A DNA stretch of 6,984 bases, from IMG/VR virus record IMGVR_UViG_2734482539_000005, one strand, 5' to 3'. Shown here piece after piece: positions 672 through 6,984 of the stretch; position 1 is the first letter of the stretch, and every line of letters begins with the position of its first letter. The translations under genes and the position numbers were made by a program. The stretch is from a virus. Taxonomy: Duplodnaviria; Heunggongvirae; Uroviricota; Caudoviricetes. Below the pieces are notes generated by a model. The model made no database searches. It was given only the letters and a program-made list of their open reading frames with translations, and was not told where the DNA came from.

Positions 672-1756
672 ATGACACAGACAGAATCAGCGATTCTGGC
701 GCACGCCCGGCGATGTGCGCCAGCGGAGTCGTGTGGCTTCGTGGTAAGAACGCCGGAGGGAGACAGGTATCTTCCCAGCGAGAATATCTCCGGTGAGCCG
801 GAGGAACGGTTCCGGATGGCTCCGGAGNNNNNNNNNNNNNNNNNNNNNNNNNNNNNNNNNNNNNNNNNNNNNNNNNNNNNNNNNNNNNNNNNNNNNNNNN
901 NNNNNNNNNNNNNNNNNNNNNNNNNNNNNNNNNNNNNNNNNNNNNNNNNNNNNNNNNNNNNNNNNNNNNNNNNNNNNNNNNNNNNNNNNNNNNNNNNNNN
1001 NNNNNNNNNNNNNNNNNNNNNNNNNNNNNNNNNNNNNNNNNNNNNNNNNNNNNNNNNNNNNNNNNNNNNNNNNNNNNNNNNNNNNNNNNNNNNNNNNNNN
1101 NNNNNNNNNNNNNNNNNNNNNNNNNNNNTTCCGGTGAGCCGGAGGATTATTTCCGGATGGCTCCGGAGGACTGGCTGCAGGCAGAAATGCAGGGTGAGAT
1201 TGTGGCGCTGGTCCACAGCCACCCCGGTGGTCTGCCCTGGCTGAGTGAGGCTGACCGGCGGCTGCAGGTGCAGAGTGATTTGCCGTGGTGGCTGGTCTGC
1301 CGGGGGGCGATTCACAAGTTCCGCTGTGTGCCGCATCTCACCGGGCGGCGCTTTGAGCACGGGGTGACGGACTGTTACACGCTGTTCCGGGATGCTTATC
1401 ATCTGGCGGGGATTGAGATGCCGAATTTTCATCGCGGGGATGACTGGTGGCGTCACGGTCAGAATCTCTATCTGGATAATCTGGAGGCCACAGGTTTTTA
1501 CCGTGTCGCACTGACAGAGGCACAGCCGGGCGATGTGCTGCTGTGCTGTTTTGGTTCATCGGTGCCGAATCATGCCGCCATTTACTGCGGTGACGGCGGG
1601 CTGCTGCACCATATTCCTGAACAACTGAGCAAACGAGAGAGGTACACCGACAAATGGCAGCGACGCACACACTCCCTCTGGCGTCACCGGGCATGGCGCG
1701 CATCTGCCTTTACGGGGATTTACAACGATTTGGTCGCCGCATCGACCTTCGTGTGA
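672..1756 (+). CDS. K: Tail tip assembly protein K (gpK-like), N-terminal JAB/MPN (JAMM) domain plus C-terminal NlpC/P60 domain; interrupted by the N-gap at 828-1128. The lambda-style 199-aa annotation corresponds to 1157..1756
   Basis: ATG at 672 gives MTQTESAILAHARRCAPAESCGFVV… up to the gap. After the gap, frame 2 reads SGEPEDYFRMAPEDWLQAEMQGEIVALVHSHPGGLPWLSEAD…VTDCYTLF…NHAAIYCGDG… to TGA at 1754-1756. A JAMM motif H-x-H-x7-S-x2-D lies at 1214-1255. The NlpC/P60 catalytic Cys is in DCYTLF (codon 1373-1375), with a downstream His. Near-identical to lambda gpK from memory. Confidence 0.85.
828..1128. other. Assembly gap (301 N) inside K, flanked by a near-identical 39-bp direct repeat
   Basis: Run of n. 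789-827 (tccggtgagccggaggaacggttccggatggctccggag) and 1130-1168 (tccggtgagccggaggattatttccggatggctccggag) differ at only 4 clustered positions and encode the same K segment (SGEPE-EERF/EDYF-RMAPE). Confidence 0.9.
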
Positions 1757-2355: not shown

Positions 2356-5300
2356 ATGGGTAAAGGCAGCAGTAAGGGGCATACCCCGCGCGAAGCGAAG
2401 GACAACCTGAAATCCACGCAGTTGCTGAGTGTGATTGATGCCATCAGCGAAGGGCCGGTTGACGGTCCGGTGGATGGATTAAAAAGCGTGCTGCTGAACG
2501 GTACGCCGGTCCTGGACAGCGAGGGGAAGACAAACTTTTCCNNNNNNNNNNNNNNNNNNNNNNNNNNNNNNNNNNNNNNNNNNNNNNNNNNNNNNNNNNN
2601 NNNNNNNNNNNNNNNNNNNNNNNNNNNNNNNNNNNNNNNNNNNNNNNNNNNNNNNNNNNNNNNNNNNNNNNNNNNNNNNNNNNNNNNNNNNNNNNNNNNN
2701 NNNNNNNNNNNNNNNNNNNNNNNNNNNNNNNNNNNNNNNNNNNNNNNNNNNNNNNNNNNNNNNNNNNNNNNNNNNNNNNNNNNNNNNNNNNNNNNNNNNN
2801 NNNNNNNNNNNNNNNNNNNNNNNNNNNNNNNNNNNNNNNNNNNNNGGAAAAAGACATCACCATTAAGGGCAAAACCACTTCGCAGTATCTGGCCTCGGTG
2901 GTGGTGGGTAACCTGCCGCCGCGCCCGTTTAATATCCGGATGCGCAGGATGACACCGGACAGCACCACAGACCAGCTGCAGAACAAAACGCTCTGGTCGT
3001 CGTACACCGAAATCATCGATGTGAAACAGTGCTACCCGAACACGGCGCTGGTCGGCGTGCAGGTGGATTCAGAGCAGTTCGGTAACCAGCAGGTGAGTCG
3101 CAATTATCATCTTCGCGGGCGCATTCTGCAGGTGCCGTCGAACTATAACCCGCAGACGCGGCAATACAGCGGTATCTGGGACGGAACGCTTAAGCCAGCA
3201 TACAGCAACAACATGGCCTGGTGTCTGTGGGACATGCTCACTCATCCGCGCTACGGCATGGGGAAACGTCTTGGTGCGGCAGATGTGGACAAATGGGCGC
3301 TGTATGTCATCGGCCAGTACTGCGACCAGTCAGTGACGGACGGATTTGGCGGCACGGAGCCGCGCATCACCTGTAACTCTTACCTGACCACACAGCGTAA
3401 GGCGTGGGATGTTCTCAGTGATTTCTGCTCGGCGATGCGCTGTATGCCGGTATGGAACGGACAGATGCTGACGTTCGTGCAGGACCGACCGTCGGATAAG
3501 GTGTGGACCTATAACCGCAGTAATGTGGTGATGCCGGACGATGGCGCGCCGTTCCGCTACAGCTTCAGCGCCCTGAAGGACCGCCATAATGCCGTTGAGG
3601 TGAACTGGATTGACCCAGATAACGGCTGGGAGACGGCGACAGAGCTTGTGGAGGATACGCAGGCCATTGCCCGTTACGGTCGTAATGTCACGAAGATGGA
3701 TGCCTTTGGCTGTACCAGCCGGGGGCAGGCACACCGAGCCGGGCTGTGGCTGATTAAAACGGAACTGCTGGAAACGCAGACCGTGGACTTCAGCGTGGGC
3801 GCAGAAGGGCTTCGCCATGTACCGGGTGATGTCATTGAAATCTGCGATGATGATTATGCCGGTATCAGCACCGGTGGTCGCGTACTGGCGGTGAACAGCC
3901 AGACCCGGACGCTGACGCTCGACCGTGAAATCACGCTGCCGTCCTCCGGTACCACGCTGATAAGCCTGGTTGACGGAAGTGGCAATCCGGTCAGCGTGGA
4001 GGTCCAGTCCGTCACCGACGGCGTGAAGGTGAAAGTGAGCCGGGTTCCTGACGGCGTTGCAGAATACAGCGTGTGGGGGCTGAAGCTGCCGACGCTGCGC
4101 CAGCGTCTGTTCCGCTGCGTGAGTATCCGTGAGAACGACGACGGCACGTATGCCATCACCGCCGTGCAGCATGTGCCGGAAAAAGAGGCCATCGTGGATA
4201 ACGGGGCACACTTTGACGGTGACCGGCGCGGCACGGTGAATGGTGTCACGCCGCCAGCGGTGCAGCATCTGACCGCCGAAGTCACCGCAGACAGCGGGGA
4301 ATATCAGGTGCTGGCGCGATGGGACACGCCGAAGGTGGTGAAGGGTGTGAGCTTCCTGCTTCGCCTGACCGTGGCAGCGGACGACGGCAGTGAGCGGCTG
4401 GTCAGCACAGCCAGGACGACGGAAACCACATACCGCTTCAGGCAGCTGGCGCTGGGGAATTACAGTCTGACAGTCCGGGCGGTAAATGCCCGGGGGCAGC
4501 AGGGCGATCCGGCGTCGGTATCGTTCCGGATTGCGGCACCGGCAGCGCCTGTCACTATTGAACTGATACCGGGGTATTTTCAGATAACGGCGGTCCCGAA
4601 ACTGGCTGTATATGACCCGACGGTGCAGTTTGAGTTCTGGTTTTCGGAAAAGCGGATTGCGGATATCAGGCAGGTTGAAACCAGCGCCCGCTATCTTGGC
4701 ACGGCGCTGTACTGGATAGCCGCCAGTATCAATATCAGGCCGGGCCATGATTATTATTTTTACGTTCGCAGTGTGAACACCGTTGGCAAATCGGCATTTG
4801 TGGAGGCCATCGGTCGGGCGAGCGATGATGCAGAAGGTTATCTGAATTTTTATAAAGGGTTGATCAATAAAACGCATCTCGGCAAGGAGTTGTGGACGCA
4901 GATTGATAACGGTCAGCTTGCGCCGGACCTGACTGAAATCAGGACGTCCATTACGAATGTCAGCAATGAAATCACGCAAACCGTCAATAAAAAACTGGAA
5001 AATCAGAGTGCTGCAATCCAGCAGATACAGAAAGTTCAGGTTGATACAAATAATAACCTGAACAGCATGTGGGCTGTGAAGCTGCAACAGATGAAGGACG
5101 GACGCCTTTATATTGCGGGTATCGGTGCCGGTATTGAGAATACGCCAGCAGGAATGCAGAGTCAGGTGCTGCTGGCGGCAGACAGGATTGCGATGATTAA
5201 TCCTGCGAATGGCAACACAAAGCCGATGTTTGTTGGTCAGGGCGATCAGATATTCATGAACGACGTGTTCCTGAAATGCCTGACGGCTCCGACCATTACC

Positions 5301-5879
5301 AGCGGCGGTAATCCTCCGGCATTTTCCCTGACACCTGGCGGACGGCTGACGGCGAAAAATGCCGATATCAGCGGTAACGTGAACGCGAACTCCGGGACGC
5401 TCAACAACGTCACGATTAATAAGAACTGTCGGGTTCTGGGAAAATTGTCCGCGAACCAGATTGAAGGCGATCTCGTTAAAACAGTGGGCAAACCTTTCCC
5501 ACGGGACTCCCGGGCACCGGAGAGGTGGCCATCAGGGACCATTACCGTCAGGGTTTATGACGATCAGCCGTTTGATCGGCAAATTGTTATTCCCGCGGTG
5601 GCGTTTCGCGGTGCTAAACATGAGCGGAAGAATAACAATATTTATTCGTCATGCCGCCTGATAGTGAAGAAAAACGGTGCTGAAATTTATAACCGAACGA
5701 CCCTGGATAATACGCTGATATATACGGGTGTTATTGATATGCCTGCCGGTCACGGTCACATGACGCTGGAGTTTTCTGTATCGGCATGGCTGGTAAATGG
5801 CTGGTATCCCACAGCAAGTATCAGCGATTTGCTGGTTGTGGTGATGAAGAAAGCCACTGCAGGCATCACGATTAGCTGA
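2356..5879 (+). CDS. J: Host specificity protein J (gpJ-like central tail fibre / tip attachment protein), interrupted by the N-gap at 2542-2845; the C-terminal part is divergent
   Basis: GAGG at 2350-2353 followed by ATG at 2356. The N-terminus [34 protein letters not shown]… is the canonical gpJ start. After the gap the 993-codon frame continues (…[58 protein letters not shown]… through the FN3-like central region) to TGA at 5877-5879. The reading frame before the gap (frame 1) and after it (frame 0) differs, which is attributed to the inexact gap length. Confidence 0.9.
2542..2845. other. Assembly gap (304 N) inside J
   Basis: Run of n. The J reading frame is not preserved across it (a frame-preserving length would be 2 mod 3, whereas 304 is 1 mod 3), which indicates an estimated rather than exact gap length. 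Confidence 0.9.
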
Positions 5880-5897
5880 ATTTTATAACCCAGATAC

Positions 5898-5924
5898 GGG
5901 CACCAGAAATGGTGCCTTTTTTAT
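5898..5924 (+). terminator. Rho-independent terminator downstream of J
   Basis: GGCACC (5899-5904), loop AGAAAT, GGTGCC (5911-5916), followed immediately by TTTTTTATT (5917-5925), 19 nt after the J stop codon. Confidence 0.7.
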
Positions 5925-5946
5925 TGCAGAAAAGCGAGAGGTAATT

Positions 5947-6546
5947 ATGCGTAAAGTTTGTGCAGCCATTTTGTCCGCAGCCATCTGTCTGGCCGTATCC
6001 GGTGCGCCTGCATGGGCGTCTGAACATCAGTCCACGCTGAGCGCCGGGTATCTTCAGACCCATACTGATATGCCAGGCAGCGATGACCTGAAGGGCATTA
6101 ACGTGAAATACCGTTATGAGTTTACGGACACGCTGGGGCTGATTACGTCATTCAGTTATGCCAACGCTGAAGATGAGCAAAAAACGCATTACAGCGATAC
6201 CCGCTGGCATGAAGATTCCGTGCGTAACCGCTGGTTCAGCGTGATGGCGGGGCCGTCTGTGCGCGTGAATGAATGGTTCAGCGCGTATGCGATGGCGGGC
6301 GTGGCTTACAGCCGTGTGTCGACCTTCTCCGGGGATTATCTCCGCGTAACTGACAACAAGGGGAAAACGCACGATGTGCTGACCGGAAGTGATGGCGGTC
6401 GCCACAGCAACACGTCTCTGGCGTGGGGGGCTGGCGTGCAGTTTAACCCGACCGAATCCGTGGCCATTGACCTTGCTTATGAAGGTTCCGGCAGTGGTGA
6501 CTGGCGCACTGACGGTTTCATCGTGGGTGTCGGTTATAAGTTCTGA
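5947..6546 (+). CDS. lom: Lom-like outer-membrane beta-barrel protein (Ail/Lom/OmpX/PagC/Rck family), a phage moron
   Basis: SD GAGAGG at 5935-5940, ATG at 5947. N-terminal signal peptide [24 protein letters not shown]|SE with an AxA cleavage site. Conserved family blocks [29 protein letters not shown] and a C-terminus [26 protein letters not shown] that is identical to the lambda Lom C-terminus as I recall it, ending in the aromatic Phe typical of OMP barrels. Confidence 0.9.
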
Positions 6547-6573
6547 TTAGCCAGGTAACACAGTGTTATGACT

Positions 6574-6598
6574 GCCCGCTGGTTCAGGCGGGCTTTTT
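6574..6598 (+). terminator. Rho-independent terminator downstream of lom
   Basis: GCCCGC (6574-6579), 8-nt loop, GCGGGC (6588-6593), then TTTTT (6594-6598). Confidence 0.65.
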
Positions 6599-6609
6599 GT
6601 GGGGTGAAT

Positions 6610-6936
6610 ATGGCAGTAAAGATTTCAGGTGTACTGAAAGATGGGGCGGGTAAACCTGTCGTAAATTGTGCGATTGAACTGCGGGCCAGAAGAACCAGTC
6701 CGACCGTTGTGGCACACGTTGTTGCCACTTGCGTGACGGACAATAACGGTGCTTATGTGATTGAGGCTGAGCCGGGGTATTACGAGGTTGCGCTTCACTG
6801 TAACGGCTGGCAGCCAACCCGTGTCGGGGATATTGATGTGGCACCGACTGATGCACCGGGGACACTGAACGCGTTTCTGAATGCACCAAAGGATGGTGAT
6901 TTACGTCCGGAGGTGATGAAGTGTCAGCGCCAGTGA
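6610..6936 (+). CDS. Prophage side-tail-fibre N-terminal-domain protein (homolog of the N-terminus of Stf), ending at a stop after 108 codons
   Basis: ATG at 6610 preceded by GGGGTG; the track ORF 6568..6936 is the same frame with an earlier alternative start. The translation MAVKISGVLKDGAGKPVVNCAIELRARR…PGTLNAFL…RPEV… follows the lambda Stf N-terminus (MAVKISGVLKDGTGKPVQNCTIQLKARR…PGTLNDFL…RPEV) as I recall it. TGA at 6934-6936. Only 48 nt of the window remain downstream. Confidence 0.7.
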   Translation: MAVKISGVLKDGAGKPVVNCAIELRARRTSPTVVAHVVATCVTDNNGAYVIEAEPGYYEVALHCNGWQPTRVGDIDVAPTDAPGTLNAFLNAPKDGDLRPEVMKCQRQ

Positions 6937-6984
6937 TATAAGACGGTAATTCGCCATTTGGATTGTCCGCTCCACCCAACATGT

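What the first reader, a model, noticed from the sequence alone, without database searches (positions are those of the whole stretch)
5420..5879. J C-terminal (receptor-binding) domain is divergent from lambda while the rest of J is near-identical
From memory, J matches lambda gpJ closely through the N-terminal and FN3-like central regions and through the block MWAVK…[38 protein letters not shown]…[23 protein letters not shown]. The last ~150 residues (…[40 protein letters not shown]…[46 protein letters not shown]) keep only patchy similarity. In lambda this domain binds LamB, so a divergent one implies a different or altered outer-membrane receptor. The DNA here is also more AT-rich than the upstream part of J, consistent with a swapped module.
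Basis: partly seen in the sequence, partly recalled or inferred. Interest (0 to 1): 0.55.

Follow-up and report, generated by a model that had tools for sequence, protein, structure and literature searches.

The report
Swapped receptor-binding tip of prophage J
The last ~150 residues of this lambda-like prophage's tail-tip protein J are a swapped-in receptor-binding domain of a known type whose closest tested relative binds the porin OmpC instead of lambda's LamB; this is ordinary lambdoid mosaicism.

Summary
The readable J sequence is 90-100% identical to lambda gpJ over lambda residues 150-800. The last ~155 residues (nt ~5421-5879) are only 41.5% identical. GC there is 0.49, against 0.60±0.02 in the J core.

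The segment is the Ig-like receptor-binding domain (Pfam Ig_GpJ_C, E=2.8e-36). It behaves as a discrete cassette. Phage cdtI is 90-100% identical to the window on both flanks but about 50% identical between nt 5440 and 5860.

The domain is 92.5% identical to the allele of O157 prophage PPompW. That allele matches the "1A2" gpJ domain at every readable position. Brödel et al. (Nature 2024) grafted 1A2 onto lambda J and showed it delivers DNA through OmpC in cells lacking LamB. A sister class, A8 (about 60% identical), has solved structures alone and bound to OmpC (PDB 9wca, 9wcb).

OmpC is the likely receptor, by inference.

Corrections:
- A second divergent block (nt ~4830-5240, the helical shaft, +28 aa) was missed.
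- lom also diverges from lambda (45% aa).
- J is broken by an N-run, so its intactness is unproven.

This is already known biology. Interest is low.

The parts
2356..2541 (+). J (tip attachment protein) N-terminal 62 codons, lambda-like
   Evidence: 56/62 aa identical to lambda gpJ
2542..2845 (.). N-run inside J, not length-faithful (about 260 nt expected); the reading frame differs on the two sides
2847..4830 (+). J hub domains and two FNIII/Ig domains, about 95% DNA identity to lambda
   Evidence: Pfam Phage-tail_3, Ig_J, Ig_J_second
4831..5240 (+). Second divergent block: alpha-helical shaft and top of the central straight fibre (lambda aa ~800-905/920). Net +28 aa, GC 0.465. Shared with phages 640R1 and cdtI, not with lambda.
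   Evidence: domain names from PMC11101478
5241..5420 (+). Conserved lower part of the central straight fibre (…FMNDVFLK…SGTLNNVTI). It forms the left recombination anchor and includes the lambda aa 964 junction used for engineered chimeras.
   Evidence: 85-92% DNA identity to lambda; junction at aa 964 in PMC11338833
5421..5879 (+). Receptor-binding domain cassette (Ig-like, Pfam Ig_GpJ_C from nt ~5487) of the 1A2/PPompW class, with stop codon at 5877-5879
5622..5642 (+). Hypervariable loop of the domain (ERKNNNI here, EKEHTDI in 1A2); predicted to be a receptor-facing bottom loop
   Evidence: entropy 1.5 bits against 0.23 elsewhere in 16 class members; loop position from the AF2 secondary structure; bottom-loop assignment is inferred
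5898..5917 (+). Terminator-like hairpin followed by a T-run, between J and lom
   Evidence: consensus scan only; the count is not above the shuffles
5947..6546 (+). lom (Ail/Lom outer-membrane beta-barrel), 45% aa identity to lambda Lom but 93-100% DNA identity to cdtI and 640R1
6610..6936 (+). Side tail fibre (stf) N-terminal domain, truncated after 108 codons
   Evidence: Pfam phage_tail_N, E=1e-36; similarity to other prophages ends at 6921
6912..6984 (.). End of an IS3-family (IS1397-like) insertion sequence that interrupts stf

Best explanation
Nt ~5421-5879 encode the C-terminal Ig-like receptor-binding domain of a lambda-type tail-tip protein J. The domain sits in an E. coli/Shigella-type lambdoid prophage tail module ordered L-K-I-J-lom-stf.

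The domain is an allele of the '1A2/PPompW' class, not the lambda class. It arrived by homologous recombination. The left anchor is the conserved end of the central straight fibre (…SGTLNNVTI). The right anchor is the conserved J terminus and the J-lom spacer.

By homology, a trimer of this domain most likely docks its bottom loops onto the extracellular loops of the trimeric porin OmpC rather than LamB. Binding would then trigger the rearrangement described for lambda: the fibre twists, the helical shaft flips, the FNIII domains are released and the tail tip opens.

The loop at nt 5622-5642 is the most variable position within the class. It probably tunes which OmpC alleles are accepted.

Shown here: domain identity, fold, class membership, cassette boundaries and purifying selection. 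Inferred: OmpC as the receptor of this allele, the role of the loop, and that this copy of J is functional.
For: - Family and fold: Pfam Ig_GpJ_C, E=2.8e-36, above its cut-off. Sequence hits to solved chains: A8 gpJ 713 (9wca) E=8e-108 and lambda gpJ (8xcj/8xck) E=5e-85. The AF2 model (pLDDT 81.5, pTM 0.73, all-beta) matches 9wca/9wcb (A8 gpJ closed, and open with OmpC of EDL933) at TM 0.76-0.77 with 60-61% identity, and lambda 8xck at TM 0.78 with 41% identity.
- Class membership: 147/159 aa (92.5%) identical to the PPompW_EH2246 allele. That allele equals the 1A2 domain reconstructed from the paper's supplement at every readable position.
- Function of the class: 1A2 and A8 chimeras, joined at lambda aa 964, deliver DNA to a strain lacking lamB and ompC only when OmpC is supplied from a plasmid. 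1A2 works on the EDL933 and TN03 OmpC variants (98% and 96% delivery). It does not work on K-12 OmpC (2-5%) (PMC11338833). 1A2 is also used to target O157.
- Cassette behaviour: cdtI is 90-100% identical on both flanks and about 50% identical inside.
- Selection: against PPompW, dS=0.28 and dN/dS=0.15. The ratio is 0.40 in the predicted bottom loops and 0.08 elsewhere.
- Signalling mechanism taken from PMC11101478.
Against: - No binding or infection data exist for this allele.
- It differs from 1A2 at 12 residues. Five of them are consecutive, in the most variable loop, so receptor-allele range or even receptor identity could differ.
- No solved structure of a 1A2-class domain with OmpC was found. 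Only the A8 class (about 60% identical) has one.
- The loop-to-receptor assignment rests on strand-alternation topology in a monomer model, not on coordinates.
- J is interrupted by an N-run with a frame discrepancy, and stf is cut by an IS element. The closest complete genome carries its gpJ as a pseudogene. This copy may therefore belong to a defective prophage.
Confidence: 0.75

Rival explanations
1. The domain belongs to the same fold family but recognises a different outer-membrane protein (another porin such as OmpF or PhoE, or LamB), because its contact loops differ from those of 1A2.
For: Receptor switches in lambda J need only a few substitutions in this domain (general knowledge; discussed in PMC11101478). 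Five consecutive residues differ from 1A2 in the hypervariable loop. Gifsy-1 J binds several outer-membrane proteins (PMC12312913).
Against: The domain is 92.5% identical to a proven OmpC binder, with strong purifying selection outside the loops. The more distant A8 class (about 60% identical) also uses OmpC. OmpC use therefore spans far more divergence than separates this allele from 1A2.
Confidence: 0.15
2. The segment is a decaying remnant in a defective prophage. Its divergence from lambda has no present functional meaning.
For: stf is truncated by an IS3-family element. J contains an unresolved N-run with a frame discrepancy. gpJ in the closest complete genome (E. coli O121 201805972) is annotated as a pseudogene with an internal stop.
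Against: The readable 1010-codon J frame (2847-5876) has no stop codon. dN/dS of 0.15 at dS=0.28 shows that the domain evolved under purifying selection. A 99% identical protein cluster has 351 member sequences. Lambda PaPa is viable without functional stf (stated in PMC11338833). Decay of this copy would not in any case explain the class-level divergence from lambda.
Confidence: 0.1

Closest known systems
gpJ '1A2' receptor-binding domain (Brödel et al., Nature 2024), equal to the J allele of O157 prophage PPompW_EH2246 (LC567836)
   Same: Same length (159 aa from LNNVTI to the end). 92.5% aa identity, with no gaps. Same conserved junction upstream. Same C-terminus (…[14 protein letters not shown]).
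   Different: Twelve substitutions, five of them consecutive in one loop (ERKNNN against EKEHTD). dS=0.28, so this is an old allele split and not a recent variant. The OmpC allele range has not been tested for this allele.
gpJ 'A8' receptor-binding domain (PDB 9wca closed; 9wcb open, with OmpC of EDL933)
   Same: Same fold (TM 0.77). About 60% identity. Same CSF-RBD junction and C-terminal motif. It is an OmpC binder.
   Different: Different loops, including a 5-residue insertion in the hypervariable loop and a shorter first loop. A8 accepts K-12 OmpC, which 1A2 does not.
Lambda gpJ receptor-binding domain (PDB 8xck, 8xcj), which binds LamB
   Same: Same Ig-like fold (TM 0.78) and the same Pfam family. 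The hub and FNIII parts of the protein upstream are nearly identical.
   Different: 41.5% identity, with the loops not conserved. The receptor is LamB. The window also carries a different, 28-aa longer helical-shaft block and a 45%-identical Lom.
Phage 434 J and phi330 J (OmpC binders)
   Same: Lambdoid J proteins with the same domain family and OmpC as receptor.
   Different: 434 is only ~42% identical in the domain. The phi330 paper reports 35-40% identity among the phi330, 434 and lambda domains; phi330 was not compared with the window.

Membership tests
Lambda-type tip attachment protein J (gpJ) | Domain architecture: hub (Phage-tail_3), two Ig/FNIII domains, tail-tip fibre, C-terminal Ig receptor-binding domain | tested here: met
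   Pfam hits above cut-off: Phage-tail_3 6e-43, Ig_J 8e-43, Ig_J_second 4e-38, Phage_Tail_Tip 1e-30, Ig_GpJ_C 3e-36
Lambda-type tip attachment protein J (gpJ) | Gene order L-K-I-J-lom-stf | tested here: met
   ORFs and Pfam hits for Phage_tail_L, Lambda_tail_I, Ail_Lom and phage_tail_N; same order as lambda
Lambda-type tip attachment protein J (gpJ) | One uninterrupted reading frame of ~1130-1160 codons | tested here: inconclusive
   The N-run at 2542-2845 hides ~87 codons and the frames differ on its two sides. The frame is open from 2847 to 5876.
Ig_GpJ_C receptor-binding domain fold | Beta-sandwich superposable on solved gpJ receptor-binding domains | tested here: met
   AF2 model with pLDDT 81.5; Foldseek TM 0.76-0.78 and E<=6e-15 to 9wca, 9wcb, 8xck and 8xcj
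1A2/PPompW class of OmpC-binding gpJ domains | High, gap-free sequence identity to the 1A2 domain across the whole domain | tested here: met
   147/159 identical to PPompW; 137/153 resolvable columns identical to the OCR-noisy 1A2 DNA
1A2/PPompW class of OmpC-binding gpJ domains | DNA delivery depends on OmpC and is independent of LamB | not testable with these tools
   Shown for 1A2 only (PMC11338833)
1A2/PPompW class of OmpC-binding gpJ domains | Conservation of receptor-contact residues | tested here: inconclusive
   No solved 1A2-OmpC structure was found. 8 of the 12 differences fall in or next to predicted bottom loops.
Lambda-class LamB-binding domain | Close similarity to the lambda domain, including loops L1-L4 | tested here: not met
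   41.5% identity overall; 26% over lambda residues 1072-1121

The most novel reading that the evidence does not exclude
The hypervariable-loop allele ERKNNN is found here and, exactly, in a Shigella flexneri and an E. coli chromosome. It might retarget the domain to an OmpC variant that 1A2 does not accept, for example that of Shigella/EIEC hosts, or to a different porin. If so, this one loop would act as a natural specificity switch within the class.
Probability: 0.25. Interest if true: 0.3.

Novelty: already known. Interest (0 to 1): 0.15.

Why it matters
It matters little for discovery. Exchange of the J receptor-binding domain among lambdoid phages is textbook mosaicism. This class has already been exploited for engineered lambda particles, and a sister class has been solved bound to OmpC.

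The practical value is in annotation. The prophage's tail tip can be labelled as a probable OmpC binder of the 1A2 class rather than a LamB binder. The allele also adds one more natural variant of the hypervariable loop, which could be screened when engineering delivery vectors for Shigella/EIEC-type hosts.

Tried and rejected
1. Source of the window. An exact-match scan of genome contigs with the loop region found S. flexneri SFBU1023 and E. coli ECMA0423. Neither is the source: the first is 98.3% identical, and the second has a different J C-terminus.
2. Paper behind PDB 9wca/9wcb. It is not in the held library.
3. Receptor data for the PhiR phages that share this domain class (PhiR46_1, PhiR49_2). 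None were found. I only noted that both were propagated on ECOR13 rather than K-12. This fits 1A2's failure on K-12 OmpC but is weak evidence.
4. Direct translation of the 1A2/A8 supplementary DNA failed because of OCR frameshifts. A frameshift-tolerant alignment solved this.
5. RBD-lom linkage. I considered that the domain and lom travel as one module, because both diverge from lambda. I rejected this: cdtI shares lom at 93-100% but not the domain.
6. Overlapping ORFs in the segment (5246-5542 minus strand, 5461-5661 plus strand). They were treated as incidental because the J frame is conserved and under purifying selection.

Full report
**Context**

The window holds the distal tail module of a lambdoid prophage. 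The genes are:
- L (29-667)
- K (broken by an N-run at 828-1128)
- I (1654-2295)
- J (2356 to 5879, broken by an N-run at 2542-2845)
- lom (5947-6546)
- the first 108 codons of a side tail fibre gene (6610-6936)

The last ~73 nt match an IS3-family (IS1397-like) element, which truncates stf.

The closest complete genome is E. coli O121 strain 201805972, at 99.2% over nt 5100-6921. There the same prophage end carries ipaH, and gpJ is annotated as a pseudogene. An exact copy of the variable-loop region occurs in S. flexneri SFBU1023 and E. coli ECMA0423, but neither is the source of the window.

**Checking the observation**

I aligned the readable J translation (2847-5876, 1010 codons, no stop) with lambda gpJ taken from NC_001416. 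Results, by lambda residue range:

| Lambda residues | Identity to window J |
|---|---|
| 150-800 | 90-100% per 50-aa block |
| ~800-921 | falls to 26-60%, with a net 28-aa insertion |
| 922-971 | 92% |
| 972-1132 | 50%, 50%, 26%, 40% |

- tblastn gives 41.5% over 158 aa for the C-terminal domain.
- At DNA level the break is sharp at nt ~5424, just after …SGTLNNVTI.
- GC of 5420-5879 is 0.493. In the J core, 460-nt windows average 0.600±0.023 with a minimum of 0.563.
- Lambda's own domain dips only to 0.545.

Three corrections apply:
By the domain map of the lambda-LamB cryo-EM study, this block is the alpha-helical shaft and the top of the central straight fibre (PMC11101478).
- The 304-nt N-run hides ~87 codons and is not length-faithful. 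About 260 nt are expected from S. flexneri and lambda, and the frames differ on its two sides.
- Divergence from lambda continues through lom, which is 45% identical in protein.

**What the segment is**

- Pfam places Ig_GpJ_C ([quoted passage not shown]) on the last 130 residues, with E=2.8e-36.
- Among solved structures, the best sequence match is "A8 gpJ 713" (9wca/9wcb, E=8e-108). Lambda gpJ follows (8xcj/8xck, E=5e-85).
- An AlphaFold2 model of the 159-residue segment, built on 31 homologues, has pLDDT 81.5 and is all-beta.
- Foldseek superposes the model on 9wca, and on 9wcb ("open state … with OmpC G17 from E. coli EDL933"), at TM 0.76-0.77 with 60-61% identity. It superposes on lambda 8xck at TM 0.78 with 41% identity.

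**The domain is an exchangeable cassette**

- Phage cdtI is 90-100% identical to the window across the shaft block, the lower fibre, the J-lom spacer and lom. It is only ~45-60% identical between nt ~5440 and ~5860.
- Phage vB_EcoS-640R1 is ~90-98% identical throughout.
It is bounded by the conserved fibre end on the left and the conserved J terminus and spacer on the right.
- lom is not part of the unit, because cdtI shares lom but not the domain.

**Which class, and which receptor**

In the phage collection the domain is 89-94% identical to J of several phages:
- vB_EcoS-640R1
- the O157 prophage PPompW
- many Stx1a and Stx2a phages
- PhiR46_1 and PhiR49_2

It is 61-65% identical to a second group (mEp460, 1H12 and others), and ~42% identical to lambda, 21 and 434.

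Brödel et al. (Nature 2024, PMC11338833) fused C-termini of natural E. coli prophage gpJ variants to lambda gpJ at residue 964. [quoted passage not shown] Two chimeras, 1A2 and A8, delivered DNA to cells lacking lamB through OmpC.

Their supplement gives the DNA, with OCR errors. A frameshift-tolerant alignment shows:
- The window domain matches 1A2 at 137 of 153 resolvable columns, and A8 at about 60%.
- The natural PPompW allele equals the reconstructed 1A2 domain at every readable position.
- The PPompW allele is 147/159 identical to the window.

Their source data show the following delivery results:

| Chimera | OmpC supplied | Delivery |
|---|---|---|
| 1A2 | EDL933 allele | 98% |
| 1A2 | TN03 allele | 96% |
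| 1A2 | K-12 allele | 2-5% |
| A8 | K-12 allele | accepted |

1A2 is also the tail tip of an anti-STEC delivery particle (bioRxiv 10.1101/2025.02.28.640725). OmpC use by long-tailed EHEC phages and by Gifsy-1 J has been reported independently.

The best-supported reading is that this domain binds OmpC. This is inference from 92.5% identity to a tested allele. It was not measured for this allele.

**Selection and the specificity loop**

- Against PPompW, dS is 0.28 and dN/dS is 0.15. The domain is therefore an old, functional allele under purifying selection, not a decayed copy.
- Among 16 class members, variability concentrates in domain residues 75-81 (nt 5622-5642). Mean entropy there is 1.5 bits, against 0.23 elsewhere. 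Lesser hot spots lie at residues 118/120 and 131-135.
- The window reads ERKNNNI in this loop where 1A2 reads EKEHTDI.
- By strand alternation in the model, residues 32-45, 75-80, 102-104 and 132-143 should be the four bottom loops. In lambda these insert into the receptor (PMC11101478).
- dN/dS is 0.40 in these loops and 0.08 outside them.
- The topological assignment is inferred. No coordinates were available to me.

**Mechanism**

Transferring the lambda model gives the following sequence:
1. The trimeric domain docks on the trimeric porin.
2. The bottom of the domain spreads.
3. The fibre prism compacts and twists.
4. The helical shaft flips.
5. The FNIII domains separate.
6. The hub opens.

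The window carries a different, longer shaft block than lambda. The functional consequence of this is unknown. Engineered chimeras kept the lambda shaft, so they say nothing about it.

**Rival explanations**

- Another receptor. The loop differences allow it, but A8 at 60% identity still uses OmpC. I put this at about 0.15.
- A dead remnant. stf is cut by an IS element, J cannot be read through the N-run, and the closest genome has a gpJ pseudogene. However, the selection signature and the open 1010-codon frame argue that the domain itself is, or recently was, functional. Decay would also not explain class-level divergence. I put this at about 0.1.

**Verdict**

This is lambdoid mosaicism of the J receptor-binding domain. 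The class has been functionally characterised, and a sister class has been solved in complex with OmpC. Interest is low (0.15).

The most novel reading not excluded is that the distinctive loop allele shifts OmpC-allele or porin specificity. I give this probability ~0.25, and the interest would be modest even if true.

Noticed in passing
window 4830-5240: A second mosaic block in J. The alpha-helical shaft and top of the central straight fibre are 26-60% identical to lambda, 28 aa longer, and have GC 0.465. The block is shared with phages 640R1 and cdtI. The effect of a longer shaft on signal transmission is unknown.
   Followed up: partly
window 828-1128 and flanks 789-827 / 1130-1168: The N-run inside gene K is flanked by two near-copies of a 39-nt segment (35/39 identical). 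In S. flexneri the sequence is continuous with a single copy. This looks like a scaffold join between contigs from different prophage copies, or a masked insertion.
   Followed up: partly
window 2542-2845: The N-run in J is 304 nt where about 260 nt are expected, and the J frame differs on its two sides. N-run lengths in this window are not faithful.
   Followed up: yes
window 6912-6984: The last ~73 nt match an IS3-family (IS1397-like) element at 95-96%. It truncates the side tail fibre gene after 108 codons.
   Followed up: partly
window 5947-6546: lom is only 45% identical in protein to lambda Lom, but 93-100% identical in DNA to the lom of cdtI and 640R1. Identity to lambda resumes at the lom 3' end and the stf start (about 6460-6660).
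   Followed up: yes
L005 (E. coli O121 201805972) 9677-11428: In the closest complete genome the same prophage end carries the T3SS effector gene ipaH, next to yecD/aspS. This suggests an EIEC/Shigella-type host background for the window.
   Followed up: no
window 5898-5917 and 6574-6593: Terminator-like hairpins with T-runs lie after J and after lom. The count is not above the shuffled expectation.
   Followed up: no
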